Source: an uncultured Acidobacteriota bacterium (GTDB taxonomy: Bacteria; Acidobacteriota; Thermoanaerobaculia; Multivoradales; UBA5704). Taken from it: DNA of 64,000 nucleotides. The stretch spans positions 118,760 to 182,759 of the forward strand of contig CAVXIG010000067.1 of the NCBI GenBank assembly GCA_963761645.1, read 5' to 3'. The position numbers and the translations under genes were made by a program. Below the pieces are notes generated by a model that worked only from the letters and a program-made list of their open reading frames with translations, did no database searches and had not been told where the DNA came from. Shown here one piece after another: positions 16,301 to 62,451 of this stretch. Each line of letters opens with the position of its first letter. The stretch's first letter is position 1.

Positions 16301-17589
16301 CCGCGATGTCCAGCCCGGCATCCTCAAGGAGAGCGCGCAGGCCCAGCGGCTGCTCGACGCCGGCACCGCTCCGGCCCGCCGGCAGCTCCGCTCGCAGCAG
16401 GTGCCCTGGAACGTGGCGGTCGACTTCGCCCTCGGCGCCATGCAGGAGACGGTCAGCGGCGACGACGCCACGGGCTATCGCGTCGGGCTCTCCTTCCCCT
16501 TCGAGAAGAGCGCCAGGAACCTCAACGTCTACGTCGTGCCCGAAGCCGGGGAGTACCGGATCGCGGCGCTGAGCACCGTCGTCTCGATGCTCGGCGAGGA
16601 GTCGCTCCGGCGGCTCCAGCGCGGCGATCTCGCCGGGGCGCGGAAGTGGCTCGACTGGGCGCGCGAGGAGACCGGAGGCGACGAGGGGAACGGCGGCGAT
16701 CCCATCCCCCAGAACCCCTTCCCGGCGCTGTGGGCTGAAAAATCCGCGGCGAGCGCCGACGACGCGCGCTGCGCCGCCGCCGCCCTGCTCACCACCACCC
16801 GGGAGAGCAGCGCCAGGGCGCTCCCCCTCCTGCGCGCCTGCCGCGACGCCGCCGGCGATCCGGCGCGGCGCAACGCCTTCGACATGGCGCTCGCCCTGGG
16901 CGACGCGGCCACCGACCGTTTCGCCGAGATGGAGGAGGATTCGGGGCGCCTGCTCGCCGCCGCCCCGGGCTCCGAGCGCGCCGAGCGGCTGCATGCCCTG
17001 GCCCTCGTCTCCCTCGGACGCTGGGGAGAGATCCGCGCGCTCGCCGAGCGGCGCCTCCAGCGCGCGGCCGACGATCCCTGGGCTCTCCAACTGCTCGCCA
17101 GCGACGCCCTGCACGCCCGCGACCTCGACCAGGCCGAGGCGCGGCTGCGGCAGATCGTCAAGTCCGGCAAGGCGACGGCGAGCAACTACAACGAGCTCGC
17201 CTGGCTGCTCCTCGAGCGGGGCCGGGTGGACGACGAGGCGCTCGACTTCGGCCAGCGCGCCGCCACCCTCTCCGATTACACGCAGTCGCCCGCCCTCCAT
17301 ACCCTCGCCTGCCTCTACGCCGAGAAGGGGCGCACCGCCGAGGCCTACCGGATCATCGTGCAGGCGATCGGCGCCAAGCCCGGCGAGGCCCCCGGCGCCG
17401 ACGACTGGTACGTCTTCGGCCGTCTCGCCGAGCAGTACGGCCTGCCGGACGTGGCCCGCAAGTACTACCGGAAGGTGACCCCGCCCAAGAGCCTGGACGC
17501 CGAGCCGATGTCCACCCACGCCCTGGCCACCCGCCGGCTCGGCCGCCCTCGGCGAGGAGAAGAAGCCGCAGCGCCGCGCGGCGCTCTGA
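13391..17589 (+). CDS. large secreted transglutaminase-like (DUF3857-type) / TPR-repeat protein (frameshifted)
   Basis: Signal peptide ORF 13391..13612 (MPVKFHPRRSFALKSMFLLAPLALASLPLF). DUF3857-like N-domain plus transglutaminase-like core RRFGDCKDKAVLLTALLRAADIPAYVALL in ORF 13552..15159. Long TPR/alpha-helical C-terminal region in ORF 13725..18236. Indels near ~13490 and ~15080. The C-terminal end (stop 17587-17589 after another inferred shift) is uncertain. Confidence 0.65.
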
Positions 17590-17730
17590 GCCGCTCTGGC
17601 CCCGTCTTTGCTTCGCTCCCGGACGGCACTCGTGCGCCTGCGTCCAACCGCGTTCCGAGGAGAAAGCGATGCTGTCCGAACCGCAGAAAGTATCCGCCCG
17701 CTCACGCCGCTCCACGCGGAGGCCGTCCCG

Positions 17731-19216
17731 ATGACCGGGGCCGCTCCGGCGGACGTCCCCGCGGGGTGGACCGCCAGGGCGAGCCGGCTGCTCACCGCGC
17801 TGTTCGTGATCGTCGTCCTCGAAGCCCTCTACACCGTTCCCAAGTACACCTGGGACCTCGCCGTCGGCGGCCGCTCAGGGGTCGGAATCCTGCTGGCCTT
17901 GAGCGTCGCCGGCGCGGCGGCAGCCCTCCTCTGGGCCGCGCGGCACCGGCTGGCGGCCCGGCTCCAGTCGGTGGGCGAACGGCTGGCGGCCGTCCCCCGC
18001 TGGCGCTGGCTCGCCCTGGTGATCGGAACCGGGCTCGTCCTGCGCGTCGCCTGGATGATCCTGTTCCCCGCCCCCCTGGCCTCGGACGGCCTCGCCTACT
18101 ACGACCTGGCCGCGCGGCTGGCGCACGGGCTCACCTATCAGACCCCCAAGGCCGAGTGGGCCGCGTGGCCGCCCGGCTACCCCTTCGTCCTGCTCGTCCA
18201 CTTCCGGCTCCTCGGCGTCGAGCCCCTGGGCGGTGAACGTCGCCAATCTCCTGCTCTTCGCCGGCGCGATGCTCGCCGTCTACGCCCTCGCCCGGCGCTT
18301 CGGCGAGGCGACCGCGCGCCTGGCGACGCTCCTGCTCGCCCTCTGGCCCAACCTGATCGCCTCGGCCGGCGTCGCGACCAAGGAGAGCGTGATCATCTTC
18401 CTGCTGCCGGTCCTGCTCCTGCTCTATCTGCGGGCCGGCGAGGAGCCTTCGCCGCGGGAAGGCGGCGGCGATGCGTTTCGTGGCGGGCATGGTGCTGGGG
18501 TACTGCACCCTGACCCAGCCGGGGATCCTGCTGTTCGCCGGGGTCTTCGCCGCCTACGAGTTGCTCCTCCGCGCGCCCGTCCTCCGCATCGCGGCGCGCC
18601 TCGCCCTGCTCGCCGCCGGCATGCTCGCCGTCATCCTCCCCTGGAGCGTCCGGAACTACCGCGTGCTCCACACGCCGGTGCTGGTCTCGACCCTCGGCGG
18701 CGACGTCTTCTACCGGGCCAACAACCCCCTGGCGACCGGCGGCTGGATCAAGGACGGCGAGCGCCCTTTGCGCGACTACGACGAGCTGACGCGAAGCCGC
18801 CTGGGCTACCAGTGGGGCAAGGAATGGATCCGCGAGAACCCGGACGAGTTCCTGCTCCTCGCGCTCCAGAAGCAGGTCCTCTTCCTGGGGGACGACGCCG
18901 TGGGCGTCTACGAGACCCTGAAGCGGGGGCTCGGCGTCGGCGGCAAGTCCTACGCCCTGGCGAAGCTCGGCGTCCAACGCCTACTGGTGGGGGATCTGGG
19001 CGCTGGTGCTCGCCGCCTTCTTCGTCCGCGCCGTCCACCTCCTGGCCGCGGCGCGCGGAGGTCGTGCTCTTCCTGCTGACCATCCTCTATTTCTGGGCGA
19101 TCGACAGCGTTTTCGAGAGCGGAGCCCGCCACCACACGCCGCTCGTGGGGCTGCTGGCGATCCTGGCGGCATCGCTGGCGGGGGCGGAGCCGCGGCGCGA
19201 GGTGACGCGCCTGTAA
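17731..19216 (+). CDS. integral-membrane glycosyltransferase, GT39/ArnT/PMT_2-like (frameshifted)
   Basis: ATG 17731 (MTGAAPADV...). Multi-TM with PMT_2/ArnT-like first-loop region (...ASDGLAYYDLAARLAHGLTYQTP...WPPGYPFVLL). Split across ORFs 17608..18513, 18233..19216 and 18471..19079. It ends at 19216. Confidence 0.55.
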
Positions 19217-19225
19217 ACTCCCCCC

Positions 19226-20995
19226 ATGAACATCCTCGGCCTCTCCGCCTTCTTCCACGAATCCGCCTGCTGCCTGCTGCGCGGCGGCCGACTGGTGGCG
19301 GCGGCCGAGGAGGAACGGTTCTCGCGGGTCAAGCACGATCCCCGGCTGCCGGTCGCCGCCTTCCGCTTCTGCCTGCGCGCGGGCGGGATCGGCATCACGG
19401 ACCTCGACGCCGTCGCCTACTACGAGTCGCCGGTCAGAAAGCTCTCCCGCCAGCTCTGGGCCGGCATCCCCGCGGGAGCCTCCCCGGGCCTGGACTGGCT
19501 CGATCCGCGGGCTCCGGAACGGGCGATCCGCGAGGGGCTGGGGTGGGACGGGCCGATCCTCACCTTCGATCACCACCTCTCCCACGCCGCGAGCTCGTTC
19601 CTCTTCTCGGAGTTTCCGGAGGCCGCCCTCCTCACCGTCGACGGCGTCGGCGAATGGGCCACCACGGCGTATGGCCGCGGGCGCGGCGCCGCGGTCGAGC
19701 TGTTCGAGGAGGTCGACTTCCCGCACTCCCTGGGCCTGCTCTACGCCACCCTCACCTCCTACCTGGGCTTCGAGGTCAACGACGGCGAGTACAAGGTGAT
19801 GGGCCTCGCCCCCTACGGCGAGCCGCGCTTTCTCGACGAGATGCGCCGGCTCGTCTCCCCGGGATCGGGAGGGACAATACCGGCTCGACCTCCAGTACTT
19901 CGATTTCATTCGCGGCCGGCGGATGTACTCGGACGCCCTGCCGCGCCTCTTCGGCGAGCCGCCGCGGAAGCCTGAGAGCGGAGATCACCCGCTTCCATCA
20001 GGACGTCGCGCGGAGCCTCCAGGCCGTGCTCGAAGAGATCCTGCTCGCGAAGGCCCACTGGCTCCACGAGCGCACCGGCCTTCCCCGACCTCTGCATGGC
20101 CGGAGGCGTGGCCCTCAACGTGGTCGCCAACGGCCGCATCCTGCGCGAGGGCCCTTTCGAGCGCCTGTTCGTCCAGCCCGCCGCCGGCGACTCCGGCGCC
20201 TGCCTCGGCGCCGCCGCCCTGGCCCACGCCCAGCTCACCGGCGGGCGGCCGGAGCCCCTGCGCCACGTCTATCTCGGACCGCGCTGGAGCTGCCGCGAGA
20301 TCGCCGGCCTGCTCGCCGCCACCGGGATCGCCGCCGAGGACTTCCGCGATCGCGAGGCCGAGCTGCTGGAGGCGGTGGTGGACCGGCTGGCGGCCGGCCG
20401 GGTGATCGGCTGGTTCCACGGCCCTCTGGAGCTCGGCCCTCGCGCGCTCGGCGGCCGGAGCCTGCTGGCCGACCCCGCGATCCCGGGATGCGCGACCGCC
20501 TGAACCACCTGGTCAAGAAGCGCGAGGCGTTCCGCCCCTTCGCGCCCAGCGTCCTCGCCGCCCACGCCGCCGGGCACTTCGATCTCGATCACCCCTCCCC
20601 CTACATGCTGGAGACCTGCCCGGTGACCTCGCCGCTCGACCTGCCGGCGGTCACCCACGTCGACGGCTCGGCCCGCCCGCAGACGGTCGATCCCGCGGTC
20701 GCCCCGCGCTACGCCGCCCTGCTCGAAGCCTTCCGGCGGCGCACCGGCTGCCCGCTGCTGGTGAACACCTCCTTCAACGTGCGCGGCGAGCCGATCGTCG
20801 CCTCCCCCGTGGACGCTCTCTCCTGCATGGGGGTCTCGGGGATCGACGTCCTGGTCCTGGAGGATTTCCTGATCGACCGCGCCAGCGCTGCCGTCGAACT
20901 GGGCCGACCTCCTCCCCGCCTGGCGCGAGCGCGCCCGCAGCGGCTTCGCCCGGGGTTCGAGCGCGATCAGCGCCGACCTCTACACGTTCGTATGA
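19226..20995 (+). CDS. carbamoyltransferase, NodU/CmcH family (frameshifted)
   Basis: N-terminal domain [38 protein letters not shown]...[12 protein letters not shown]...DGVGEWATT...FPHSLGLLY...[12 protein letters not shown] is co-linear with the NodU/NovN family. Further segments are in ORFs 19923..20405, 19006..23103 and 20096..20503 ([38 protein letters not shown]...[14 protein letters not shown]). It needs at least four frame changes. Its stop TGA 20993-20995 overlaps the next gene's ATG. Confidence 0.75.
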
Positions 20996-23103
20996 GATCG
21001 CTCTACGACGCCCTCGCCCAGCTCCTCGCCACTCCCGAGGGCCTGCGCACCGCCCGTCTCCTCCAGGCGGCCGGCCTGCTCGGCGCGCCCGCCGCCCCGG
21101 CACCCCGTCCTATCCCACGATTCCCGGAGCCGATCAGCATCTGGCAGCCGCGGCGAGGAATCGACGGCGAGACCGTCTTCGTCCGTCCCGATCCCCTGCC
21201 GCTCGGGGATCACCATGCGGCCACGCCGGTCCTCCGGCCCAAGAAGTCGCTGCTTCCGCTCCGCGTCGCCTTCTTCGGCGAGTCGGTCGCGGCGGGCTAT
21301 CTCTACGCTCCCCACCTGACGCCCGCCCAGGTGCTCGAAGCCCAGCTCCGGGCCGCCGGCGGGGCGGAGCTGCTTCGAGGTGATCGATCTCGCCCGCACC
21401 AACGAGACCCTCCCCTCCCTCGCCGCGACCGTGCGCGCCTCGCTTCAGATCAACCCGGACGTGCTCGTCCTCTTCGCCGGCAACAACTGGAACCTGCTGG
21501 AGACGCCGGAGGTCTCCCCCTACGCCCCGTCCGTCGCGGCGCGGCAGCGTTACGGTCAGGCGCTGCGGGAGGAAGGGATCGCGGGGCCGATCGGGCTCGC
21601 CGCGGAGAGACTCCGGCAGGCGGCGGAAGCGGCGTTCGGCGACATCGCGGAGCTCGCCTGGGCGGTGCACATCCCGGTCGTCGTGGTGATTCCGGAGGTC
21701 AACCTCGCCGACTGGGAGACGCGCCAGCCGCCGGTCTGGCTGAGCGGGGACGGCACCGGCCGCTGGCACGCCCTCTACGCCGAAGCCGTCGAACGCCTCG
21801 ACCAGCACGACTTCGCGGGCGCGATCGAAGTCCGCCCAAAGCGATGCGGGAGCTCGACGGCGGCGACTGCTCCTCGACGTGGCGCCTCCTCGCCCGAGCC
21901 CACCTTGGTCTTGGCAATCTGGAGGACGCGCGGAACGCCTGTCTCGCCGAAGTCGACGCCGCCCGCTACGCCACCCTCGCCTTCTTGAGCGCCCCCCAGG
22001 CCACCACGGCGGCCCGCGAGCTGTCGCGGGATCTTGCCCGCCGGCACGGCTTCCTCGCCGTGGACCTCCGCGACGTCTTTTCCGAGCACACCGGATCGAG
22101 CCTGCCGGACCGCCGCCTCTTCCTCGATTACTGCCATCTGACCCTGGAGGGGATCCAGGTCGCCATGGCCGCCGTCGCGGCCCAGGTGCTGAATCTCTCG
22201 GGAATGCTCGACGAGGAGGCGGACTGGCGGCGCCTGATCTCCTCCTCGCCGCTCTCTCCCGAAGCCGAAGCCGTCGCCTGTTTCGGAGCCGCCATCCACA
22301 CCGCCCACCGCCTCCTGTCGACCGGCCCCAAGCGCCCTATCCTGGAGCACTGGTGCGAGGCCGCCCTCGACGCCTCGCCCGGCATCGCCGAGACGATGCT
22401 CGACCTCGTCGCCGCCCGCTGCGCCCCCTGCCCCGCCGTGCTGACCGCCGCCCAGCAGCGCAACCTCGCCTCCCCCTACCGCCTCCTCCTCCAGCACGGC
22501 TGGCGCTGGGACCACCTCGACGCCGATCTGATCGAGGCCATCCGCGCCGTCCTGGAGCGCCGCGGCCACCCGGCCGGAGAGCGGATCGACCGCCTCCTCC
22601 TGGAGCACCTCGCGATCCGCGAGGAAGGGACCGAGTTGCTCGACGCGATCTACCTCTGGGAACCGCTGGAGAGGTTTTATCCGGAGGTGATGGATTTCGA
22701 GGATCTGTCCCGCCGGGCGACCTTTCGCAGCCCCTGGCCGGAGTCCTCGTTCTGCCTGATCTGCGACGCGGAACGGGACGTGGAGATCGCAATGACCGTC
22801 CGGCTCTCCGCGCCCGGACGGGTAGGGCTCGCCGTCAATGATCGGGATCTCGGAACCGTGGACGCGGGAGAACGCTGGACGCGGGCGGTGCTGCGGATCG
22901 AGCGGGAAAGTCTGTACCGCGGCCTGAATCGCCTTACCTTGCGCTGGCCGCCGCCGCCGGACGGCGAGGCCGCACTCGCCGCTGCCGCGGAACGCCTCGA
23001 AATTGGGGTCGCGGCGGACCTGCACCCGGTGTTCGGAGAGATTTTTTCGTTGCGCTCGACTCCATCCACATTCCGGGGAAGGGCCGGAACGTTTCACTGC
23101 TAG
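20992..23103 (+). CDS. hypothetical protein with SGNH/GDSL-hydrolase-like N-terminal region and large C-terminal domain (frameshifted)
   Basis: ATG 20992 ([10 protein letters not shown]...) is coupled to the carbamoyltransferase stop (ATGA). Contains ...LRVAFFGESVAAGYLY..., then the 21380..21988 frame (...DVLVLFAGNNWNLL...), then the 19006..23103 frame to stop 23103. No confident functional assignment. Confidence 0.5.
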   Translation: MRSLYDALAQLLATPEGLRTARLLQAAGLLGAPAAPAPRPIPRFPEPISIWQPRRGIDGETVFVRPDPLPLGDHHAATPVLRPKKSLLPLRVAFFGESVAAGYLYAPHLTPAQVLEAQLRAAGGAELLRGDRSRPHQRDPPLPRRDRARLASDQPGRARPLRRQQLEPAGDAGGLPLRPVRRGAAALRSGAAGGRDRGADRARRGETPAGGGSGVRRHRGARLGGAHPGRRGDSGGQPRRLGDAPAAGLAERGRHRPLARPLRRSRRTPRPARLRGRDRSPPKAMRELDGGDCSSTWRLLARAHLGLGNLEDARNACLAEVDAARYATLAFLSAPQATTAARELSRDLARRHGFLAVDLRDVFSEHTGSSLPDRRLFLDYCHLTLEGIQVAMAAVAAQVLNLSGMLDEEADWRRLISSSPLSPEAEAVACFGAAIHTAHRLLSTGPKRPILEHWCEAALDASPGIAETMLDLVAARCAPCPAVLTAAQQRNLASPYRLLLQHGWRWDHLDADLIEAIRAVLERRGHPAGERIDRLLLEHLAIREEGTELLDAIYLWEPLERFYPEVMDFEDLSRRATFRSPWPESSFCLICDAERDVEIAMTVRLSAPGRVGLAVNDRDLGTVDAGERWTRAVLRIERESLYRGLNRLTLRWPPPPDGEAALAAAAERLEIGVAADLHPVFGEIFSLRSTPSTFRGRAGTFHC

Positions 23104-23340: not shown

Positions 23341-25233
<1,893 letters not shown>

Positions 25234-38993: not shown

Positions 38994-39104
38994 GGTCAGA
39001 TCAGCCTCCGGTAGAGTCACTGGTCTCTACAACGCACCCCGGCGGCAGGTATTACCAGGTACCGGGAGGCTCGCGCCTTGCGGCAGGCGAAGCCAGATAG
39101 GAAA

Positions 39105-41420: not shown

Positions 41421-41525
41421 CGGCTCACCTCTTCGCAAGTTCCTCGTTGATGGATGCCAGAACGAGCGGTCCGGTACCGCCATCCAGGAGGAAACTTGCA
41501 GCAAGAGACGAGCCAGAGAAGGACG

Positions 41526-47211: not shown

Positions 47212-48714
47212 CCACCGTGCGTAACGGGGGCCGAGGCGATCAGCTCTTGCAGGACTTCGGGCTGCACGGGCTTGACCAGGTGATGACCGAAACCCGCCTC
47301 CTGGCTATGGATCCGGTCGCTGTCCTGGCCATAACCGGTGACGGCCACGATGAACACGTCCCGGAAACTGGGCAGTTTCCGCATGCCGGGCGACCTCATA
47401 GCCGCTCATGCCCGGCAGCCCGATATCGAGCAGGACGATCTCGGGCCGGAATTCCACGGCCTGGGCGAGGGCCTCCGTTCCGTTCAGGCGCTCCGGACCT
47501 CGTGCCCCCAGAGCTGGAGGAGAAGCTCCAGGGTCTCCGTGGCGTCCCGGTTGTCGTCCACCACGAGCACGCGGCGGGAGCTGGCCGGCCCGCTCCCGGC
47601 CGGCTGGGGCAGGCGGCGCCGGGGCCTGAACGGCGAGGAGCGGCAGGCGGACGATGAACTCGCTGCCGAGACCGGAGCCCTCGCTCCGAACCTCGACCGA
47701 GCCGCCGTGCAGCTTCACCAGCCGGTGCACCATGGTGAGGCCGATGCCGAGGCCGCCTTCCGTCCGGTCCAGCGAGCGATCCCCCTGCGTGAACAGGTCG
47801 AAGACGTTCGGCAGCAGCTCGGCCGGGATGCCGATGCCGGTGTCATGGACCCGGATCACCGCCATCGCCCCTTCCCTCTCCACCGTCAACCGGAGGTGAC
47901 CGCCTTGGGTGTAAATTTGGCCGCATTGTTAAGCAGGTTCATCACGACCTGCGAGAGCCGGGTCAGATCGCCTTCGATCCGCAGAGGCTCGTCCGGAAGC
48001 CGGACCTCGAGGGATGTTCGCGGGAGTCGATCAGCGGCTGGCTCGATTCGACCGCGCTGGTCACGATCTGCGCGATCTCCAGCGGCTCTCTCTGCAGCGT
48101 GATCTTGCCGATGGCGATCCGGCTCACGTCCAGGAGGTCGTCCACCAGCCGGGTCAGATGCGTGACCTGGCGGTCGAGCACGGTCCTGGCCCAGTCAGGG
48201 CGGATTCGTCGACGCCGTTCATCCGCATCACGCTGAGCGCGTTGCGGATCGGCGCCAGCGGGTTGCGCAGCTCGTGGGACAGCATGGCGAGGAACTCGTT
48301 CCTGCGCAGGTCGGCCTCCTCGAGCATTTCGACCGCTTGCGCTCGGTCAGGTCGCGGGTGATCTTGGCGAAGCCGCGCAAGCCGCTTCTCGCCGTCGTAC
48401 AGGGCGGTGATGACGACGTTGGCCCAGAAGGCCGAGCCGTCCTTGCGGACCCGCCAGCCCTCGTCCTCGAACCGTCCTTCCGACCGGGCTATCCGCAGCT
48501 CGTGCTCCGGCCAGCCGCGCGCGAGGGCATCGGCCGGATAGAAGAGGGAGAAGTGCCGCCCCAGGATCTCCTCGGCCTGGTAGCCCTTGATCAGCTGCGC
48601 GCCGCTGTTCCAACTGGCGATCTTGCCCTCGGGGTCGAGCATGAAGATGGCGTAGTCCTTCACCCCCTCCACCAGCAACCGGAACCGCTCCTCGCTCTGC
48701 GGATTTCTCTTCAT
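47205..48714 (-). CDS. hybrid sensor histidine kinase (PAS-HisKA-HATPase-receiver), frameshifted
   Basis: PAS plus H-box ...[17 protein letters not shown] (48154..48714). HisKA remainder (47963..48181). HATPase_c ...[25 protein letters not shown]...[19 protein letters not shown] plus receiver start (47305..47889). Receiver end ...[29 protein letters not shown] (47205..47399). Confidence 0.7.
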
Positions 48715-48744
48715 TCCATGCCCTCAGGAGTACGGGTCAGGGTG

Positions 48745-51114: not shown

Positions 51115-51704
51115 CGGGGAGAAGTTTAACGGATCAGAGGGCGGAGAGTGAACGGGCGAGCATGATCGGCATGGACAGAAGGTGAGCCATTTGACGAGGA
51201 CCTCTCCGCGCGCCGAAAAGATATGCGGCAACAGCTCAGCAGCTCTCGGGGAGCTGATTCACTGACGAGAAGGGCGGAGCGCAAACGGGGGAGTCGTAGC
51301 CGGAGCTGGGGCCTCAAGCGGCCCGATACGCTGAAGAGTCTCGAGACGAGGATGACTTCTCGACGCTGACAGTCGCGGCAGGCTCCCGCGTCCTCGACGA
51401 GATCTCATCACACTCACGTTCATAGTGCCGCAGGTTTCCTGCAAAGACGGGGCGGTCTGTCGCGGCGGCTGGGAGGTCGAGGGCTATGAGGAGGCGGGAG
51501 GGAGTATGGCGCGGTTCGGAAGCTGGGGAGAAGTGCAGCGGATCAGGGCGTTGAGGCAGTTGGGGCGCGAATCCGTGGTCGGGTTCAAGGATGGCCGCCG
51601 CAGGGCGTGATGGCCTTCGGAATCACGTCTGCTGCCATATTCTTCCTCTGAAACCTTTCCCGGGCTCCAGCATCCAAGCGGCATAGGAGGGACGTAGTCT
51701 AGCC

Positions 51705-53717: not shown

Positions 53718-53829
53718 AAGGTCCAAGACGCGCACTCCCCCTGATGCCATCGCCGCCCGGCCACGCTCCGGCTGCTGCTGTCCTCTTCCTGCTCCCTCCT
53801 CTGTCTGCTGCGAAGCTGTCGTATCTGTT

Positions 53830-54345
53830 CGGCTCGACGGCCCCTTTCACACCTTCTTCCTTCCCCGGCCGGAGCCGCCAAGCATCTGGGTCGCCGGCGT
53901 GTCGGGCCTGTTCACCCAGGAGTTCTACCGCTCGGCCGCCGCGCATCTCACCGACAACGGGGTCCTCTGCCAGTGGGTGCCTCTCTACGAGATGGAGCGG
54001 CAGGACTTCCGGACCATGCTGGCCACCATCAGCAGCGTCTTCCCGAACGTCGCCTTCTGGCAGGTGGGTAGGGATGTGATCCTGCTCGCCTCGCCGCAGC
54101 CGTTCCGGCTGGAGCTCAAGCCGACGGTGGAGCGGCTGCGCAACCCCGCCCTCGCCCGCGACTTCTCGGCCCTCGGCCTCACCATGCGGTCGGTGGTCGA
54201 TTTCCTGACCACCCCCGAGGTGCGCCCCGACCAGGTGCAGGGCATCCTCGGCGGCGAGAAGACGGTCCTCAACGTGGACGACAAGCCGGTGCTGGAGTTC
54301 TCGACGGCGCGGAATCTGTACGAGTTGGTGAAGCGCAGGAAGTAG
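53830..54345 (+). pseudogene. spermidine-synthase-like protein, C-terminal fragment only
   Basis: ORF 53899..54345 ...IWVAGVSGLFTQEFYRSAAAHLTDNGVLCQWVPLYEM...NVAFWQVG... matches the C-terminal third of spermidine-synthase-family (aminopropyltransferase-like) proteins. No N-terminal Rossmann/membrane region precedes it. Confidence 0.45.
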
Positions 54346-54364
54346 GGCCTTCCTCTGGGAATGC

Positions 54365-54628
54365 AGGGGTGGGGCTCGTCCCCGCCCTCGCCCCGAAAGG
54401 GCGAAATTTGAATAGCCTGGGGTTTTAACCCCAGGTAGGCGGCCTCCCCTTTTCCATACCCGCCCTGAGGGGGCGGTGCCTTTCAGCGGCAATCCCTCGG
54501 TTCAGGAAAAGTTGGGTCCCGCCCCTTCAGGGCGGGTGGGGATGGGGGGACTGCCTACCTGGGGTTGAAACCCCAGGCTATTCAAATTCCGCCCTTTCAG
54601 GGCGGGGGAAGGGACAAGCCCCTCCCCT
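54365..54628. repeat. MITE-like element / long nested inverted repeat with REP-type GC palindromes
   Basis: Left arm 54365-54430 (ggggtggggctcgtccccgccctcgccccgaaagggcgaaatttgaatagcctggggttttaaccccaggtaggc) is the near-exact reverse complement of right arm 54553-54628 (gcctacctggggttgaaaccccaggctattcaaatttcgccctttcagggcgggggaagggacaagcccctcccc). Each arm contains the 20-bp palindrome cctggggtt(t/g)aaaccccagg. The 122-bp core holds two more cccgccc-N4-gggcgg palindromes. Confidence 0.6.
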
Positions 54629-54646
54629 ACATTTCTTGCCAGCCCC

Positions 54647-55669
54647 CTACTGCCGTTGTGTCACCCGCGCTTCCCGCTCGGCCCGCGCGGCGTCCAGATC
54701 CAGGCGCTTGGCGGTCTCGAGGAGCTGCGGCCTTTCGAAGGAGGTCTCGCGCATCTGCCCCATGCGGTAGGCGCGGGTGGTGTAGGCGTTCTCCACCAGG
54801 TCGTTGAGGGCGTTCGGCATGCGGGTGGTGGTCGAGAGGGCCAGGGTACCCAGACGGTAGGGACCCGCGGCCTGGCGCTCGTGGAACATCAGCCCGTAGA
54901 AGGAGAGCTCGAGCCAGTGGCGGCCGGGCTCCAGGTTGGCCGCTGCCTGCGCGAAGCCGATCGGCTCCCCCGCCGGCGTGTAGAGCGTGCCGCCGAGATG
55001 GAAACGGCCGGTCTCGGCGACCTCGATCTCGGCGGAGATCACGAGATTGCCGTCGCGCAGGGTGTCGCGGTAGCGGCCGGTCAGGTGCGCGGACGGATCG
55101 CTGTAGAGGAAGCCGCCGGCGGCCTCGCGCAGGTCGCCGTTGGCGAGCCGCGCCCGCACGCGCACCATGTAGCTCGCCGCCGGAGCCGCCTCGATCCCGG
55201 TGGGCGTCCAGCGGGCCGAATAGATGCCGTCGCCCGCCTTGCGGTCGGCCCCCTGGCCGTCGTCCCGGTACGCAACCAGGGCGTTGATGCTGCCGGCGGC
55301 GTCCACGATCTCGCCGGTGACCTGAGCGGCGGCGACCGCTTTGCCGCGGCTCTCCAGCGTGGCGTAGAGATCCACCGGCTGCCCCTTCTCGAAGCTCACC
55401 TTGGCGGCCCAGACGGAGATCGCGGGCTCGGCGTCGTCCGGCCCGCGCCGCGTCTGCCGGGTCGGGATCCGTTTCGCCTGGATGGGATCCGCCTCCCCCT
55501 TCTTGAGGGCGCGGGAGCTCTCCGGGTAGCGCGCCTGCTCCCGGTACTCTTTCGCCGTCTCGCGGGCCAGTTGGCCGGCCTCCACCTGCGCCGCGGCGGG
55601 CCGGCCGCCGAGCGCCGGAGCCGCGAGCATCACCATCGCGATGGCAACCTTTTTCTTCGCGTCGATCAT
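54647..55669 (-). CDS. hypothetical membrane-anchored/secreted protein, operon partner of lipase-like hydrolase
   Basis: Intact 340-aa ORF MIDAKKKVAIAMVMLAAPALGG... Its ATG lies 10 nt after the stop of 55680..56690. No known domain recognised. Confidence 0.6.
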   Translation of the reverse strand: MIDAKKKVAIAMVMLAAPALGGRPAAAQVEAGQLARETAKEYREQARYPESSRALKKGEADPIQAKRIPTRQTRRGPDDAEPAISVWAAKVSFEKGQPVDLYATLESRGKAVAAAQVTGEIVDAAGSINALVAYRDDGQGADRKAGDGIYSARWTPTGIEAAPAASYMVRVRARLANGDLREAAGGFLYSDPSAHLTGRYRDTLRDGNLVISAEIEVAETGRFHLGGTLYTPAGEPIGFAQAAANLEPGRHWLELSFYGLMFHERQAAGPYRLGTLALSTTTRMPNALNDLVENAYTTRAYRMGQMRETSFERPQLLETAKRLDLDAARAEREARVTQRQ

Positions 55670-55679
55670 CTCGGGCCTC

Positions 55680-56690
55680 CTAGTAGAGAAGAGTGATGTA
55701 TTGAGCGGTGGTCATCGACGTCTGCACGGTGGTGTTGGGGGCGCAGGGGACGCCGCCGCAGGTCCAGTTGCCGCCCGGGATCGCCTTGCGGGTGTCGGAG
55801 TCGCTGGCGTCGCGCTCGTCGCTGTGGTTCTCGTGCGCCGCGTCGAGGTTGCGGAAGCCGCTCGCCTCCTGCTTGTTCGAGTTGTTGCAGACGTTGGTGT
55901 TGTCGTAGCTCGCCGTCGCGCTGCCGTTGCAGGCGAAGATCGAGGCGTACTGCACGACGCCGTCGTCCTCGCCGTTGAGGCAGGCGCTGGAGCCGAAGAT
56001 CGCCTCGTAGCCGCCGGTCAGGTAGATGGTCTTCGCCGGGGCGTTGGAGAAGGTGCGCACCTGGACGTCGTCGGAGCTGCGCAGCCAGTAGGTGGCGTCG
56101 TCGCAGCTCTGGATGAAGACGGCGATGAAGCTGCAGAGCGGGTTCGACTGCAGGCAGACGGCGTCCGCCCCCTGCGAGCCGCGATGGGCGCCGCCGGTGG
56201 TGACCGCCAGACTGAGGCGCTGCGCCACCTGGTCGTAGGGGCCGTTGGCGTTGAAGTTGGGATCGGAGGCGTCGTTGTTGCCGAGGATGTAGTCGATCAC
56301 CGTGCCGCCCATGCTGTGGGCGATCACCCAGAAGGTGCCCCCCTGCGCGTAGGTGAGGCGGCAGCGGTTGCCGCCGGCGTCGGCGCCGCCGTTGGTGGCG
56401 TTGACGATCTCGTTGGCCACCTCGCCGGCCGCCTGCGCGTCCCAGTAGGGACGGGTGCCGTTGTAGCCCACCACGTAGTAGGAGGTCGCGAGGTTCTTCG
56501 TCGCCGTGCGGATGAAGTCGTTCGATCCGTTCACCCAGTAATTCCGGGCGGAGGCGTAGCTGGTGAACGTGTTGGTGTTGGTCTGCTTGCCGTGAACGAA
56601 GATCAGGCAGGGCTGGGCTCCCGCCTCCGCGGCGACGGCGGCGAACGCCAGCGTCGCAAGGAGCGGGACGATCAGACGACGGAACCTCAT
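55680..56690 (-). CDS. secreted alpha/beta-hydrolase, lipase/esterase-like (AHSMGG nucleophile elbow, Cys-rich C-terminus) - copy 1
   Basis: Intact 336-aa ORF with signal peptide, IFVHGKQTNTN (oxyanion region) and VIAHSMGGTV (GxSxG, as in Bacillus LipA-type lipases). 12 Cys are in the C-terminal half. Confidence 0.75.
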   Translation of the reverse strand: MRFRRLIVPLLATLAFAAVAAEAGAQPCLIFVHGKQTNTNTFTSYASARNYWVNGSNDFIRTATKNLATSYYVVGYNGTRPYWDAQAAGEVANEIVNATNGGADAGGNRCRLTYAQGGTFWVIAHSMGGTVIDYILGNNDASDPNFNANGPYDQVAQRLSLAVTTGGAHRGSQGADAVCLQSNPLCSFIAVFIQSCDDATYWLRSSDDVQVRTFSNAPAKTIYLTGGYEAIFGSSACLNGEDDGVVQYASIFACNGSATASYDNTNVCNNSNKQEASGFRNLDAAHENHSDERDASDSDTRKAIPGGNWTCGGVPCAPNTTVQTSMTTAQYITLLY

Positions 56691-56776
56691 CGGGCGACCT
56701 CCTCCGTTGAAAAGTCCATGGTTGAGCCAGGGCTTAAAGAGAAGGGTGCGCGCGGGGAGGCGAAACGCGCCTGAAG

Positions 56777-57328
56777 TTATGAAGGTGAAGAAAGGTGCGG
56801 GAGGGGTGGTGTAGAGTTTTTTTTTTTTTTTTTTTTGTTATAAGAAAATGCGATCCCGGTGGGCGTCCAGCGGGCCGAGTAGATGCCGTCGCCCGCCTTG
56901 CGGTCGGCCCCCTGGCCGTCGTCCCGGTACGCAACCAGGGCGTTGATGCTGCCGGCGGCGTCCACGATCTCGCCGGTGACCTGAGCGGCGGCGACCGCTT
57001 TGCCGCGGCTCTCCAGCGTGGCGTAGAGATCCACCGGCTGCCCCTTCTCGAAGCTCACCTTGGCGGCCCAGACGGAGATCGCGGGCTCGGCGTCGTCCGG
57101 CCCGCGCCGCGTCTGCCGGGTCGGGATCCGTTTCGCCTGGATGGGATCCGCCTCCCCCTTCTTGAGGGCGCGGGAGCTCTCCGGGTAGCGCGCCTGCTCC
57201 CGGTACTCTTTCGCCGTCTCGCGGGCCAGTTGGCCGGCCTCCACCTGCGCCGCGGCGGGCCGGCCGCCGAGCGCCGGAGCCGCGAGCATCACCATCGCGA
57301 TGGCAACCTTTTTCTTCGCGTCGATCAT
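56777..57328 (-). pseudogene. truncated duplicate of 54647..55669 (N-terminal 165 aa) reading through into poly-A (…NKKKKKKN…)
   Basis: ORF 56777..57328 is identical to the partner-protein N-terminus up to ...ARWTPTGI. It then diverges into the junction and homopolymer and terminates. Confidence 0.6.
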
Positions 57329-57338
57329 CTCGGGCCTC

Positions 57339-58349
57339 CTAGTAGAGAAGAGTGATGTATTGAGCGGTGGTCATCGACGTCTGCACGGTGGTGTTGGGGG
57401 CGCAGGGGACGCCGCCGCAGGTCCAGTTGCCGCCCGGGATCGCCTTGCGGGTGTCGGAGTCGCTGGCGTCGCGCTCGTCGCTGTGGTTCTCGTGCGCCGC
57501 GTCGAGGTTGCGGAAGCCGCTCGCCTCCTGCTTGTTCGAGTTGTTGCAGACGTTGGTGTTGTCGTAGCTCGCCGTCGCGCTGCCGTTGCAGGCGAAGATC
57601 GAGGCGTACTGCACGACGCCGTCGTCCTCGCCGTTGAGGCAGGCGCTGGAGCCGAAGATCGCCTCGTAGCCGCCGGTCAGGTAGATGGTTTTCGCCGGGG
57701 CGTTGGAGAAGGTGCGCACCTGGACGTCGTCGGAGCTGCGCAGCCAGTAGGTGGCGTCGTCGCAGCTCTGGATGAAGACGGCGATGAAGCTGCAGAGCGG
57801 GTTCGACTGCAGGCAGACGGCGTCCGCCCCCTGCGAGCCGCGGTGGGCGCCGCCGGTGGTGACCGCCAGACTGAGGCGCTGCGCCACCTGGTCGTAGGGG
57901 CCGTTGGCGTTGAAGTTGGGATCGGAGGCGTCGTTGTTGCCGAGGATGTAGTCGATCACCGTGCCGCCCATGCTGTGGGCGATCACCCAGAAGGTGCCCC
58001 CTTGCGCGTAGGTGAGGCGGCAGCGGTTGCCGCCGGCGTCGGCGCCGCCGTTGGTGGCGTTGACGATCTCGTTGGCCACCTCGCCGGCCGCCTGCGCGTC
58101 CCAGTAGGGACGGGTGCCGTTGTAGCCCACCACGTAGTAGGAGGTCGCGAGGTTCTTCGTCGCCGTGCGGATGAAGTCGTTCGATCCGTTCACCCAGTAA
58201 TTCCGGGCGGAGGCGTAGCTGGTGAACGTGTTGGTGTTGGTCTGCTTGCCGTGAACGAAGATCAGGCAGGGCTGGGCTCCCGCCTCCGCGGCGATGGCGG
58301 CGAACGCCAGCGTCGCAAGGAGCGGGACGATCAGACGGCGGAACTTCAT
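57339..58349 (-). CDS. secreted lipase/esterase-like alpha/beta-hydrolase - copy 2
   Basis: 336-aa ORF with 99% identity to 55680..56690. It has its own upstream region, which is shared with copy 1 for ~80 nt. Confidence 0.75.
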   Translation of the reverse strand: MKFRRLIVPLLATLAFAAIAAEAGAQPCLIFVHGKQTNTNTFTSYASARNYWVNGSNDFIRTATKNLATSYYVVGYNGTRPYWDAQAAGEVANEIVNATNGGADAGGNRCRLTYAQGGTFWVIAHSMGGTVIDYILGNNDASDPNFNANGPYDQVAQRLSLAVTTGGAHRGSQGADAVCLQSNPLCSFIAVFIQSCDDATYWLRSSDDVQVRTFSNAPAKTIYLTGGYEAIFGSSACLNGEDDGVVQYASIFACNGSATASYDNTNVCNNSNKQEASGFRNLDAAHENHSDERDASDSDTRKAIPGGNWTCGGVPCAPNTTVQTSMTTAQYITLLY

Positions 58350-58441
58350 CGGGCGACCTCCTCCGGTGAAAAGTCCATGGTTTAGCCAGGGCTTACAAAG
58401 AGAAGGGTGCGCCGGGGGAGGCGAAACGCGCCTCCCCGAAG

Positions 58442-60367
58442 TTACTTGAACCGGCCGAAGAACAGGCCGCCGTGGAGGGCGGCGGCGTAGAGAATCCCGG
58501 GCTGGTTGCGAGCCGTGACCAGGAGCTTGGCCGCCCGTTTCGACCCTTCGAAGGGGCCGCCGATCGGCTTCAGGGTGGCGCCGCCGTCCCGGCTGCGCAG
58601 GACCCCCTGCTGGAAGGTGGCGATGTAGATCGTGTTCGGGTCGGTGGCGTCGACCGCCAGAGCCCCGTAGAAGTCCGGGTAGGGGGACCGCGCGTGGACG
58701 ACCTGCCAGCTCTCCCCGCTATCCCGGCTGCGCAGGATCTGGGTGGTCCGGTTGTCGACGATGTAGAGGGTGCGGAAATCGCTCGGCGCGACGGCGGCCA
58801 GGGAGGGGTCCCCCTTCAGCGTCTTCCAGGTGGCCCCGCCGTCGTTGCTCCTGGCGAGGAACTGGCCGAAGCTGCTCGTGCCGTTGGTCGCCAGCATCAG
58901 AGCGTAGAGATTGCGGGAGTTTCGCGGATCGACCCAGAGCTCGACCGTGCTGACGGCGTCGTCGTCATCGTCCGGCAGTTCGCACGGAATGACCCGCGTC
59001 CAGGTCCGGCCGTCGTTCGTGCTCCGGCTCAGGCCGCAGTCCCGGCCGGAGAGGAGGGTCCCGGGGGTGGGGACGGCGATCCGGTAGGTGGACGTGGCGT
59101 CGATCTGATCCCAGGCCTCCCCGCCGTCGCGGCTCTCCCACAGCCCAGCGCCGTTGGCCGCGTACAGACGGTCGGGATCGGCGGGATCGAAGGCGAGGTC
59201 GAACAGCCCGTCGCGGCCGAGCCCGCGGGCGAAAGGCTGCCAGGTGCGGCCGCCGTCGGTGCTGCGGAACGAACGGTCCCCGCGGGTGGCGAGGCCGACG
59301 TAGCTCGTGTCCGGCCGGCTCGGATGGATCTCGAACAGGGCGACCGGGCCGGCGCTCAAGCCCGGCTCGACGCCGATCCGCCAGCGCTCGCCGCCGTTGG
59401 CGCTCTTGGCGACCCCCCGCTCGTAGGTGCCGGCGTAGAGGACGCCCGGCCGGGAGGGGTCCGCGGCCAGCGAGAAGATCTCCAGGGTCTCGCCGAACGG
59501 GAGTGGCGGCAGGCCGCGGGCGAGCTGCCTCCAGGTGGCGCCGTCGTCCGTGCTCGCGAAGACCCCGTCCAACCCCGCCGCGTAGAGCTTCGACGGCGAG
59601 GTGGGATCGGCCAGGAAGGCTTCGTCGAGGGAAAGGCCGGCGGGGAGGCTCCCGGTCAGCCGCCAGTCGCGGGCGCCGTCGTCGCTGCGGAAGATTCCGT
59701 TCCCCGCTCTCATGTAGAGGATTCCACGGGCCAGGGAGAGATGGCCGTACAGGACCGGCTGGCCGCTCACCAAAGGACCCGTGAGGGACCAGTTCTTCCC
59801 AGAGTCGGTGCTCTTGTGGAGCCCCGATCCATCCGCGTAGTAGGCGGTCCCTGGCGAGCCCGGGTCCGCCACGATCGAGGTGATCGGGCCGTTGATGAAG
59901 GTCGCCGACCAGGTGCTCCCGCCGTCGGCGCTGCGCAGCAGCAGGGCGCCCGAGCCGGCCAGGAGGACGGACGGGTTTCCCGGGATCACGGCCAGCGACG
60001 TGACGTCGAGCGAGATCGCCGGCGGCGAGGTTACCTGCCAGGTTTTGCCGCCGTCCGTGCTGCGCGCGAGCTGGTCCCCTCCCACGTAGATCGCGGCGGG
60101 ATGAGAGGGATCGAGCGCCACGACCTCGAGGCGCCGGCCGAAGAGGCCCGTCCAGGTCTCGCCGCCGTCGGCGCTCCGGTAGAGGACGCCCGACGCCGCG
60201 TAGACCACCGAGGGATCGCGGGGATCGACCGCCAGGCCCTGCGGAGTGCCGCCCCCCGGGCCGAAAGGTGCCCAGCGGTTCCGCGGCGCCTGCGCGAAGG
60301 CCGCCGAGGCGAGAGCCAGAGAGATCAGGACGATCGATAAGGTCGCGGAAAGCTTCACTCGGTGCAT
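58442..60367 (-). CDS. secreted BNR/Asp-box repeat beta-propeller protein
   Basis: ATG 60367 gives an MHRVKLSATLSIVLISLALASAAFAQ signal peptide. There are more than 10 S-x-D-G-G-x-T-W (Asp-box) motifs, e.g. STDGGKTW, SADGGSTW, STDDGATW, STDGGRTW, SNDGGATW. Intact 641 aa. Confidence 0.8.
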   Translation of the reverse strand: MHRVKLSATLSIVLISLALASAAFAQAPRNRWAPFGPGGGTPQGLAVDPRDPSVVYAASGVLYRSADGGETWTGLFGRRLEVVALDPSHPAAIYVGGDQLARSTDGGKTWQVTSPPAISLDVTSLAVIPGNPSVLLAGSGALLLRSADGGSTWSATFINGPITSIVADPGSPGTAYYADGSGLHKSTDSGKNWSLTGPLVSGQPVLYGHLSLARGILYMRAGNGIFRSDDGARDWRLTGSLPAGLSLDEAFLADPTSPSKLYAAGLDGVFASTDDGATWRQLARGLPPLPFGETLEIFSLAADPSRPGVLYAGTYERGVAKSANGGERWRIGVEPGLSAGPVALFEIHPSRPDTSYVGLATRGDRSFRSTDGGRTWQPFARGLGRDGLFDLAFDPADPDRLYAANGAGLWESRDGGEAWDQIDATSTYRIAVPTPGTLLSGRDCGLSRSTNDGRTWTRVIPCELPDDDDDAVSTVELWVDPRNSRNLYALMLATNGTSSFGQFLARSNDGGATWKTLKGDPSLAAVAPSDFRTLYIVDNRTTQILRSRDSGESWQVVHARSPYPDFYGALAVDATDPNTIYIATFQQGVLRSRDGGATLKPIGGPFEGSKRAAKLLVTARNQPGILYAAALHGGLFFGRFK

Positions 60368-60548
60368 CGGAATCTCCTTACTCGAATCTTCCTTCGAACA
60401 ATCCACCCGTCGGCCGGGGCAGGCCGGCTTCGCTCCGTTTCCAGGTCTGGCCGCCGTCCGTCTTCCATGACCTACTATGCGCGCATGGTGAGGGAAAACC
60501 GGCAAGGCGAAACTTTTCGTGCCGCTGTATCATCCCACCCGCCGCCCC

Positions 60549-62154: not shown

Positions 62155-62451
62155 CAGAGCTCCGCGGCAGTTTCAACAGAGCTCCGCGGCTGGCAACGGA
62201 TCGAACGCTGCGGAGAAGCGCGGCGACGTTGCGGAGAAGCGCGGAAGCCCCGGCGAGCTTCAAAATAACTCGGGCGGAGAAGCAATCAAGTCCGGCGAAC
62301 AGCGAAATCGCCTCTCCGTCTTGCGGTAAAACGTCCTGAACCACCCCCGGAACGCGGACGGAACCGGGAAAAATCGCCGGCGGGGAGACCGGCAACCCGG
62401 GGTAGGGACCCGCCAAAACCGCGGCGGCAATCTCCGCAGGAGACCGCAATC

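What the first reader, a model, noticed from the sequence alone, without database searches (positions are those of the whole stretch)
55192..58431. Tandem duplication of lipase gene plus half of its partner gene, joined by an A20 homopolymer (retro-copy signature or misassembly)
Two 1.58-kb copies (55192-56772 and 56849-58431) are ~99% identical. The upstream copy carries the lipase-like gene and exactly the first 165 codons of the partner gene. In gene (minus-strand) sense it ends in tcgcattttcttataac + A20, followed by a diverged remnant of the BNR gene 3' end, and then the second complete copy. A 20-nt poly(A) run at the 3' end of a copied transcribed segment is the hallmark of reverse-transcribed (cDNA-derived) insertions and is very unusual in a 70%-GC genome. 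The truncated partner ORF therefore reads ...WTPTGIAFSYNKKKKKKN*. The differences between copies are 2 aa near the lipase N-terminus with no adenine-biased mutation pattern, so it is not DGR-like.
Basis: partly seen in the sequence, partly recalled or inferred. Interest (0 to 1): 0.65.

Follow-up and report, generated by a model that had tools for sequence, protein, structure and literature searches.

The report
Probable false duplication at assembly join
The 1.6-kb repeat joined by a run of 20 T's is really in the sequence, but it most likely comes from two overlapping sequence pieces from two closely related strains being joined end to end in an error-prone metagenome assembly, not from a reverse-transcribed gene copy.

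Summary
The repeat is real in the sequence. Copies 55192-56772 and 56851-58433 differ by 11 substitutions and one 2-nt indel. They are separated by a C-depleted 44-nt copy of the BNR gene's 3' end, a T20 run (the only homopolymer of 8 or more in 64 kb) and 14 unmatched bases. Two details were wrong: 159 codons of the partner gene are shared, not 165, and the truncated ORF ends ...KKKKKKNSTPPLPHLSSPS*.

All 163 related loci carry one copy of the lipase-like gene. The copy differences sit at naturally polymorphic, mostly synonymous sites, so they look like two strain alleles. The window is a poor consensus: 18 isolated 1-nt indels break three conserved genes at 17.5-22 kb, and other genes are frameshifted. 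Two more deletion-only tracts (51145-51590, 53745-53865) lie within 6 kb of the junction, one of them next to a 1.7-kb deletion. The window holds no reverse transcriptase motif, group II intron or retron RNA.

Best reading (about 0.7): an unmerged overlap, or false heterotype duplication, in a long-read MAG assembly, with raw-read noise at the join. A real duplication with a badly rendered junction (about 0.17) needs reads to exclude. A retro-copy is unlikely (about 0.03).

The parts
55192..56772 (-). Copy A of the repeat. It holds the first 159 codons of the partner gene, lipase-like gene A and the upstream intergenic region. It is contiguous with the rest of the partner gene.
   Evidence: Of the 11 A/B substitution sites, copy A has the state of the closest relatives at seven, copy B at one, and three are ambiguous; the GC/CG swap is two of copy A's seven. 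The intergenic region of copy A matches L001 and L004-L006.
56851..58433 (-). Copy B of the repeat. It is contiguous with the intact BNR gene.
   Evidence: B's state is seen in other relatives at 10 of the 11 differing substitution sites. The 4 differences in the bulk coding sequence are all synonymous transitions.
56773..56816 (+). Degraded copy of the BNR 3' end (template 58434-58492). C is almost completely erased on the + strand, while A and G are retained.
   Evidence: score 41, against a control maximum of 35. Base counts go from A13 C17 G23 T6 in the template to A13 C1 G22 T8 in the remnant..
56817..56836 (+). T20 homopolymer (A20 in gene sense).
   Evidence: it is the only homopolymer of 8 or more in the window.
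56837..56850 (+). 14-nt filler, GTTATAAGAAAATG, of unknown origin.
   Evidence: It has no other copy in the window at up to 2 mismatches. The 31-mer across it is absent from the JGI metagenome contigs. It gave no significant match to sequencing adapters recalled from memory.
54647..55669 (-). Full-length partner gene (340 aa, DUF4785_3rd / choice-of-anchor X).
   Evidence: It sits next to the lipase-like gene in 145 of 163 related loci.
55680..56690 (-). Lipase-like gene A (336 aa).
   Evidence: It has no hit in Pfam, NCBIfam or by PDB sequence search. It carries an AHSMGG motif. The AlphaFold2 model hits family I bacterial lipases weakly.
56777..57328 (-). Truncated partner ORF (183 aa). It has 159 native residues followed by AFSYNKKKKKKNSTPPLPHLSSPS*.
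57339..58349 (-). Lipase-like gene B (336 aa; R2K and V19I relative to A).
58442..60505 (-). BNR/Sortilin-type beta-propeller gene. Its 3' end is the template of the remnant.
   Evidence: This gene is variable or replaced in the closest relatives L004-L006 and L084.
53745..53865 (+). Second deletion-only tract. It is the 5' start of the MFS/spermine-synthase gene with 35 small deletions and no insertions. It is followed by loss of about 1.7 kb of the gene.
   Evidence: The gene is intact in L001, L004, L005, L006 and L084. The deletions are purine-biased on the + strand (Fisher p=0.001).
51145..51590 (+). Third deletion-only tract. It is a VapBC toxin-antitoxin module with 176 deleted bases relative to L001, few substitutions (0-3 per 50 nt up to 51400, more beyond) and a handful of insertions at its far end.
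   Evidence: The deletions are pyrimidine-biased on the + strand (Fisher p=6e-9).
17542..21841 (+). Cluster of 18 isolated 1-nt indels (12 insertions, 6 deletions, mostly outside homopolymers). They break the PMT_2 gene, the carbamoyltransferase gene and a 691-aa gene.
   Evidence: by comparison with the JGI contig L164.

Best explanation
The tandem duplication is most likely an assembly artefact: a false 'heterotype' duplication made by an unmerged overlap.

The window comes from a metagenome-assembled Thermoanaerobaculia genome. Its indel-dominated consensus errors point to error-prone single-molecule reads. I infer that two sequence pieces (reads or contigs) from two closely related strains overlapped by about 1.64 kb, from codon 160 of the partner gene to 59 nt inside the BNR gene. 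I infer that they were concatenated instead of merged.

The left piece ends in unpolished noise, namely a pyrimidine-dropout version of the BNR 3' end running into a T homopolymer. The right piece starts with 14 junk bases. Because no real molecule spans the false join, polishing could not clean it. Each copy itself was polished by reads of its own strain and so kept that strain's alleles.

Shown here: the anatomy, the uniqueness of the duplication, the allele-like differences between copies, and the poor consensus with sibling lesions. Inferred: the sequencing technology and the exact assembler step.
For: 1. Single copy everywhere else. All 163 related loci from genomes and metagenomes have one lipase-like gene, including relatives at about 95% nucleotide identity (L004, L005, L006, L084, L085).
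2. The A/B differences are 11 substitutions and one 2-nt indel. The 4 in the bulk coding sequence are all synonymous transitions. At 10 of 11 sites B's state exists as a natural allele in relatives. The differences cluster next to the strain-variable BNR side. This is what two strain haplotypes look like, not a fresh duplicate and not read error.
3. The unit boundaries fall in mid-codon in one gene and 59 nt inside another.
4. The joint is not genomic-looking. It has a T20, which is unique in 64 kb, 14 unmatched bases, and a copy of the BNR end in which 16 of 17 C's are deleted or read as T while all A's and all but one G survive.
5. The same kind of lesion recurs twice within 6 kb, without poly(A). 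These deletion-only tracts are at 51145-51590 and 53745-53865, and the second sits at a 1.7-kb deletion breakpoint. The dropouts are pyrimidine-biased on one strand in tracts b and c and on the other strand in tract a, as expected from single reads of either orientation.
6. The contig has many other consensus errors:
- 18 isolated 1-nt indels at 17.5-22 kb break three conserved genes.
- There is a +1 frameshift at about 52905 relative to four relatives.
- An acyltransferase gene is split across frames at about 39.5 kb.
- Several other ORFs give truncated domain hits.
7. The window's ThiC is 100% identical to an unannotated NCBI/ENA protein on a 193-kb contig. Unannotated NCBI/ENA records of this kind include the long-read MAG sets seen among the relatives.
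8. The literature lists the hallmarks of false duplications: haplotype-specific variants, gaps or junk between the copies, and half depth (PMC9516828). Single chimeric nanopore reads and polishing failures are known to produce local misassemblies, including a 1.2-kb duplication (PMC7500977).
Against: No reads or coverage are available, so the join cannot be tested directly. The source record and its sequencing technology could not be identified. The T20 and the 14-nt filler match no adapter I could recall, so their origin is unexplained. The near-total C specificity of the dropout in the remnant is only loosely explained as channel- or base-specific read noise. The lipase-like and partner genes in both copies have no frameshifts, so local consensus quality is good apart from the joint. 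A real duplication at low frequency with a badly polished junction would look similar.
Confidence: 0.7

Rival explanations
1. A real tandem duplication exists in the organism or in one sub-population. It would have formed by illegitimate recombination, end joining or template switching, possibly involving DNA from a related strain. Only the junction is mis-rendered by a poor consensus.
For: Both copies are clean, frame-intact and carry natural-looking alleles. The degraded tract really derives from the BNR 3' end, which is what a true head-to-tail junction would contain. Long reads can span and assemble true 1.6-kb duplications.
Against: A junction that real reads span should have been polished as well as the flanking copies were. 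A fresh duplicate should be identical, yet the copies differ by 0.8% at polymorphic sites, with B's variants clustered near the variable BNR side. No duplication is seen in any of 163 relatives. Sibling lesions nearby argue for a consensus or assembly cause.
Confidence: 0.17
2. This is an RT-mediated retro-copy. An mRNA covering the lipase-like gene and the 5' part of the partner gene was polyadenylated, reverse-transcribed and inserted, leaving A20 and a target-site duplication (the BNR 3' end).
For: In gene sense the A20 follows the copied segment and is itself followed by a second copy of the 59 nt that precede the unit, which is formally like a target-site duplication. Bacterial RTs that make poly-dA exist (DRT9, PMC12483538).
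Against: No [YF]xDD motif occurs in six frames. No ORF scanned hit an RT family in Pfam. No group II intron or retron RNA was found. The copy is tandem and starts exactly where the supposed target-site duplication ends. The 3' end lies in mid-codon 160 with no terminator. Fourteen unrelated bases precede the A-run. The 'target-site duplication' is a C-erased, deletion-riddled copy, and the same dropout lesion occurs at two sites without poly(A). The copies differ at polymorphic sites rather than being parent and fresh copy.
Confidence: 0.03
3. One in-vivo complex rearrangement produced the duplication, the 1.7-kb deletion and the degraded tracts together. The mechanism would be error-prone, template-switching repair synthesis (MMBIR/BIR-like), possibly under dCTP depletion.
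For: Three lesions cluster within 6 kb, two of them at breakpoints. In the remnant, C is skipped or replaced by T, followed by a T run, as expected if dCTP were limiting.
Against: Deletion densities of 20-45% per base with almost no substitutions are far beyond any known polymerase error spectrum (established knowledge). The bias switches between purines and pyrimidines from tract to tract. The rest of the window carries ordinary consensus errors far from these sites.
Confidence: 0.04

Closest known systems
False heterotype duplication / unmerged overlap in genome assemblies (Ko et al. 2022, PMC9516828)
   Same: Two near-identical copies sit in tandem and differ by haplotype-type variants. Non-genomic material (a gap or junk) lies between them. 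The boundaries are unrelated to biology. Gene content is inflated falsely.
   Different: Here the 'haplotypes' would be co-occurring strains in a metagenome rather than the alleles of a diploid. The spacer is a T20 plus noise rather than an N-gap. Depth and read discordance could not be tested.
Misassembly from single chimeric or low-quality nanopore reads, with imperfect polishing (Courtine et al. 2020, PMC7500977)
   Same: That paper reports local structural errors and a 1.2-kb duplication at an assembly discontinuity. It also reports residual indels that break genes after polishing.
   Different: The sequencing technology of this window is inferred, not known. No adapter sequence was recognisable at the joint.
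Processed retro-copy (poly(A)-tailed cDNA insertion with target-site duplication), as made by LINE-type retrotransposition
   Same: An A-run follows the 3' end of a copied transcribed segment, and it is followed by a repeat of the sequence that precedes the copy.
   Different: The arrangement is tandem, not dispersed. There is no RT in the window. The 3' end is in mid-codon. There is a 14-nt filler. The flank repeat is degraded. The organism is bacterial, and no such pathway is known in bacteria.
DRT9 poly-dA-synthesising defence reverse transcriptase (Tang et al. 2025, PMC12483538)
   Same: It is a bacterial enzyme that makes dA homopolymers.
   Different: Its product is protein-primed, extrachromosomal and kilobase-scale. 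It is not known to integrate. No DRT gene or ncRNA is present in the window.

Membership tests
False (heterotype) duplication / assembly join artefact | The copies differ by haplotype- or strain-specific variants rather than being identical or differing by random errors. | tested here: met
   There are 11 substitutions. At 10 of the 11 sites B's state occurs in relatives. The 4 differences in the bulk coding sequence are all synonymous.
False (heterotype) duplication / assembly join artefact | A gap or non-genomic sequence lies between the duplicated copies. | tested here: met
   The spacer is a T20, a 14-nt unmatched filler and a C-erased 44-nt tract. It is unique in the window.
False (heterotype) duplication / assembly join artefact | Read depth is about half per copy, and reads are discordant or do not span the join. 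| not testable with these tools
   No reads are available and the source record could not be retrieved.
False (heterotype) duplication / assembly join artefact | There is independent evidence of assembly or consensus errors in the same contig. | tested here: met
   Eighteen 1-nt indels break three genes. There are frameshifts at about 52905 and about 39.5 kb. Two other deletion-only tracts are present.
False (heterotype) duplication / assembly join artefact | Related genomes show a single-copy state. | tested here: met
   All 163 of 163 related loci are single copy.
RT-mediated retro-copy (processed copy) | A poly(A) run lies at the 3' end of the copy in sense orientation. | tested here: inconclusive
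   An A20 is present in gene sense, but it is separated from the copied segment by 14 unrelated bases, and it sits in a noise tract.
RT-mediated retro-copy (processed copy) | Intact target-site duplications flank the insert. | tested here: not met
   The only candidate is the 59-nt BNR 3' end. Its second copy has 15 deletions and 4 C>T changes.
RT-mediated retro-copy (processed copy) | A reverse transcriptase source is present. | tested here: not met
   There is no [YF]xDD motif in six frames of the 64-kb window, no ORF scanned hit an RT family in Pfam, and no group II intron or retron RNA was found. The rest of the genome was not available.
RT-mediated retro-copy (processed copy) | The ends of the copy coincide with the ends of a transcript. 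| tested here: not met
   The 3' end lies after nucleotide 478 of the partner ORF, in mid-codon 160, with no terminator there.
Diversity-generating retroelement (TR/VR pair) | The repeats differ by adenine-specific substitutions, with an RT and an accessory gene nearby. | tested here: not met
   The differences are mixed transitions and transversions with no A bias. No RT was found.
Genuine tandem segmental duplication (slippage or illegitimate recombination) | The head-to-tail junction is clean or shows microhomology, and the copies are near-identical at birth. | tested here: not met
   The junction holds 34 nt of untemplated sequence plus a degraded tract. The copies are 0.8% diverged at polymorphic sites.

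The most novel reading that the evidence does not exclude
The junction is genuine. An Acidobacterial cell would have made a tandem copy of a transcribed segment by error-prone, template-switching DNA synthesis (by a reverse transcriptase or a repair polymerase). That synthesis skipped or mis-paired template G's, as under dCTP depletion, and added a dT/dA homopolymer before re-priming. This would be a bacterial analogue of retro-duplication or kataegis-like break repair, and it would have left three scars in 6 kb.
Probability: 0.04. Interest if true: 0.8.

Novelty: not a real feature. Interest (0 to 1): 0.1.

Why it matters
If it were real, a poly(A)-joined duplicate of a transcribed segment in a bacterium would point to an unknown RNA-mediated or error-prone gene-duplication pathway. 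As it most likely stands, its value is practical. It shows how a false strain-level duplication looks in a long-read MAG: near-identical copies carrying strain alleles, a junk homopolymer joint, and deletion-only tracts nearby. It also warns that this contig's gene content (one extra lipase-like gene, a truncated partner, and 'lost' VapBC and MFS genes) should not be taken at face value.

Tried and rejected
- Exact-protein look-ups of the four window proteins, and of the 100%-identical ThiC hit P0121, found no retrievable contig. The source record and its reads could not be identified.
- The 31-mer across the filler and partner junction is absent from the JGI metagenome contigs. The filler has no second copy in the window.
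- I compared the joint with sequencing adapters and primers recalled from memory: ONT ligation, rapid and cDNA, Nextera ME, TruSeq, SMRTbell and SMART. The best matches were a short Nextera ME match and a Mu-end match, at p of about 0.01-0.04 each. These are not significant after about 32 tests, so the adapter origin is rejected as unproven.
- I first thought the degraded tracts worsen progressively towards the breakpoint. The per-bin counts do not show a steady gradient, so I dropped this idea.
- I considered that the degraded tracts are the common subsequence of two unrelated sequences merged by a consensus step. The T20 and the filler cannot be derived from the partner-gene flank, so this does not explain the joint (reasoning).
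- I considered natural pseudogene decay for the deletion-only tracts and for the 1-nt indels. I rejected it. One tract has 176 deleted bases against a handful of insertions at its far end, and few substitutions (0-3 per 50 nt up to 51400). The isolated 1-nt insertions lie outside homopolymers. The relatives at 95% identity are intact.
- DGR, group II intron and retron origins were rejected.
- A crude GC3-periodicity scan for further degraded tracts was too noisy to use.


Full report
**What is in the sequence.** All genes here are on the minus strand. In gene sense the order is as follows:

- the BNR/Sortilin-type gene (58442-60505);
- an intergenic region with a hairpin;
- lipase-like gene B (57339-58349);
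- a truncated partner ORF (56777-57328);
- 14 unmatched bases;
- A20;
- a 44-nt degraded copy of the BNR 3' end;
- the intergenic region again;
- lipase-like gene A (55680-56690);
- the full partner gene (54647-55669, DUF4785_3rd).

The two copies, 55192-56772 and 56851-58433, differ by 11 substitutions and one 2-nt indel. T20 (56817-56836) is the only homopolymer of 8 or more in 64 kb. Region 56772-56854 is the only stretch with at most one C per 40 nt and has the lowest G+C in the window. None of this is chance.

The shared part of the partner gene is 478 nt, which is 159 codons, not 165. The truncated ORF runs on to ...KKKKKKNSTPPLPHLSSPS*, ending at the relic of the BNR stop codon.

**The remnant.** The 44 nt left of the T-run align with the true BNR 3' end (58434-58492). 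The score is 41, against a maximum of 35 in 2418 control windows and 30 in 2000 shuffles. The changes are not ordinary divergence. Base counts go from A13 C17 G23 T6 to A13 C1 G22 T8. Twelve C's are deleted and four are read as T, while A and G are essentially untouched.

**Organism and relatives.** The lipase-like protein has hundreds of homologues, the closest in Thermoanaerobaculia (Acidobacteriota) MAGs. I fetched 163 related loci from genome and metagenome collections. Five of them are about 95% identical in DNA (L004, L005, L006, L084, L085). Every locus has exactly one lipase-like gene, and 145 have the partner next to it. The duplication is therefore unique to this window. The 31-mer across the filler junction is absent from the JGI metagenome contigs.

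**The two copies look like two strain alleles.** I polarised the differences with six outgroups. Of the 11 substitution sites, copy A carries the state of the closest relatives at seven (the GC/CG swap counts as two of these), copy B at one, and three are ambiguous. The four differences in the bulk coding sequence are all synonymous transitions. The two amino-acid changes, R2K and V19I, lie in the signal peptide. At 10 of the 11 substitution sites B's state exists as a natural allele in other relatives. The differences cluster in the 140 nt next to the BNR gene, which is itself variable or replaced among the closest relatives. This pattern fits two co-occurring haplotypes. It does not fit a fresh duplicate, which should be identical, nor read noise, which in this contig consists of indels.

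**The contig is a poor consensus.**

- Compared with an Illumina-type JGI relative (L164), the window has 18 isolated 1-nt indels at 17.5-22 kb. Twelve are insertions and six are deletions, and most lie outside homopolymers.
- These indels break the PMT_2 gene, the carbamoyltransferase gene and a 691-aa gene. The Pfam N- and C-terminal domains of the carbamoyltransferase fall in different frames.
- A +1 insertion at about 52905 frameshifts a Rieske/flavoreductase-type gene relative to L004, L005, L006 and L010.
- An acyltransferase gene is split across frames at about 39.5 kb.
- Several other ORFs give truncated domain hits.

The window's ThiC is 100% identical to an unannotated NCBI/ENA protein on a 193,272-bp contig. 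That contig is probably the source. Unannotated ENA MAG records among the relatives include long-read (Flye-style 'contig_N') assemblies.

**Sibling lesions.** Two more tracts of the same kind lie within 6 kb of the junction.

- Window 53745-53865 is the start of an MFS/spermine-synthase gene that is intact in all relatives. It carries 35 small deletions and no insertions. It is followed by loss of about 1.7 kb, so that only the last 170 of 797 residues remain.
- Window 51145-51590 is a VapBC module with 176 deleted bases relative to L001, few substitutions (0-3 per 50 nt up to 51400, more beyond) and a handful of insertions at its far end.

The dropouts are base-biased: pyrimidines on the + strand in the VapBC tract and in the BNR remnant, and purines on the + strand in the MFS tract (Fisher p = 6e-9, 5e-6 and 1e-3). 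One rule covers all three: pyrimidine loss in the orientation of a single read. Neither sibling tract has a poly(A). No known mutational process deletes 20-45% of bases with almost no substitutions. This is how unpolished single-molecule noise or a failed consensus looks.

**Most likely mechanism.** Two sequence pieces from two strains overlapped from partner codon 160 to 59 nt inside the BNR gene. They were concatenated rather than merged.

- The left piece ends in noise, namely the C-erased BNR end and the T-run.
- The right piece begins with 14 junk bases.
- No real molecule crosses the false join, so polishing left it raw.
- Each copy was polished by its own strain's reads.

This matches the published hallmarks of false heterotype duplications: haplotype-specific variants and a gap or junk between copies (PMC9516828). 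It also matches reports that single chimeric nanopore reads and imperfect polishing create local misassemblies, including a kilobase duplication (PMC7500977).

The anatomy, the uniqueness, the allele pattern and the consensus errors are shown here. The sequencing technology and the assembler step are inferred. I give this reading about 0.7.

**Rivals.**

- A real duplication whose junction is merely badly rendered cannot be excluded without reads (about 0.17). Against it, a junction that reads span should polish as well as the flanking copies did, and the copies are 0.8% apart.
- The retro-copy reading is weak (about 0.03):
  - The six-frame translation holds no [YF]xDD motif.
  - No ORF scanned hit an RT family in Pfam.
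  - There is no group II intron or retron RNA. The only Rfam hits are a TPP riboswitch and Acido-Lenti-1.
  - The copy is tandem and ends in mid-codon.
  - The supposed target-site duplication is the C-erased tract.
- A single in-vivo complex rearrangement by error-prone template switching, for example under dCTP depletion, would be remarkable (about 0.04). It has to explain error densities beyond any known polymerase and ordinary consensus errors elsewhere in the window.

**Gene identity.** 'Lipase-like' is a fair but weak label. There is no hit in Pfam, NCBIfam or by PDB sequence search. The protein has an AHSMGG nucleophile-elbow motif. An AlphaFold2 model (mean pLDDT 64, N-terminal half 70-93) gives Foldseek hits to family I bacterial lipases at E of about 1e-4 and TM of about 0.3.

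**Verdict.** It is most probably not a feature of the organism. Interest is low unless read mapping shows spanning molecules.

Noticed in passing
window 51145-51590: The VapBC toxin-antitoxin module is present only as a deletion-riddled copy. It has 176 deleted bases relative to L001, few substitutions (0-3 per 50 nt up to 51400) and only a handful of insertions at its far end. The deletions are pyrimidine-biased on the + strand.
   Followed up: yes
window 53745-54342: The MFS/spermine-synthase gene is intact in all close relatives. Here it is reduced to a deletion-riddled 5' stub joined to its last 170 codons, with about 1.7 kb missing.
   Followed up: yes
window 17542-21841; about 39480; about 52905: Isolated 1-nt indels, mostly outside homopolymers, frameshift the PMT_2 gene, the carbamoyltransferase gene, a 691-aa gene, an HGSNAT-type acyltransferase gene and a Rieske/flavoreductase-type gene. 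Truncated domain hits at 4763-6505, 8286-9023, 38433-39026, 40377-41525 and 48154-48723 suggest further breaks.
   Followed up: partly
window 55680-56690 and 54647-55669; loci L001-L163: The lipase-like protein and its DUF4785_3rd/choice-of-anchor-X partner form a conserved two-gene cassette. The lipase-like protein keeps 68-75% amino-acid identity across Acidobacteriota, Gamma- and Alphaproteobacteria, Myxococcota and Binatia. It has about 12 invariant cysteines and no profile-library annotation. The function of the pair is unknown.
   Followed up: partly
window 54360-54633: A 97-nt inverted repeat (85% complementary) lies between the partner gene and the MFS remnant. One arm matches the Rfam family Acido-Lenti-1 RNA (54558-54604, 41.6 bits). 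A similar element occurs in L006 next to the DUF5996 gene.
   Followed up: no
window 58442-60505 versus L004-L006, L084: The BNR/Sortilin-type gene upstream of the cassette is strain-variable. It is about 87-89% identical in L001 and L085, and it is replaced by a different sequence of about 1.9 kb (in L006 ending in a BNR-like GLFVGRFE* C-terminus) in the closest relatives.
   Followed up: partly
window 25276-25375: A TPP riboswitch (RF00059, 67.8 bits) lies upstream of thiC (23341-25221). This is an ordinary arrangement.
   Followed up: no
window 11798-12058: A GCC-rich stretch with 9-15-nt periodicity encodes a glycine-rich N-terminal extension of the class-V aminotransferase ORF (10459-12087, minus strand).
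   Followed up: no
window 23061-23204 and 62219-62362: A 144-nt inverted repeat pair (78% complementary) has its arms 39 kb apart in intergenic regions. It may be a dispersed REP-like element.
   Followed up: no
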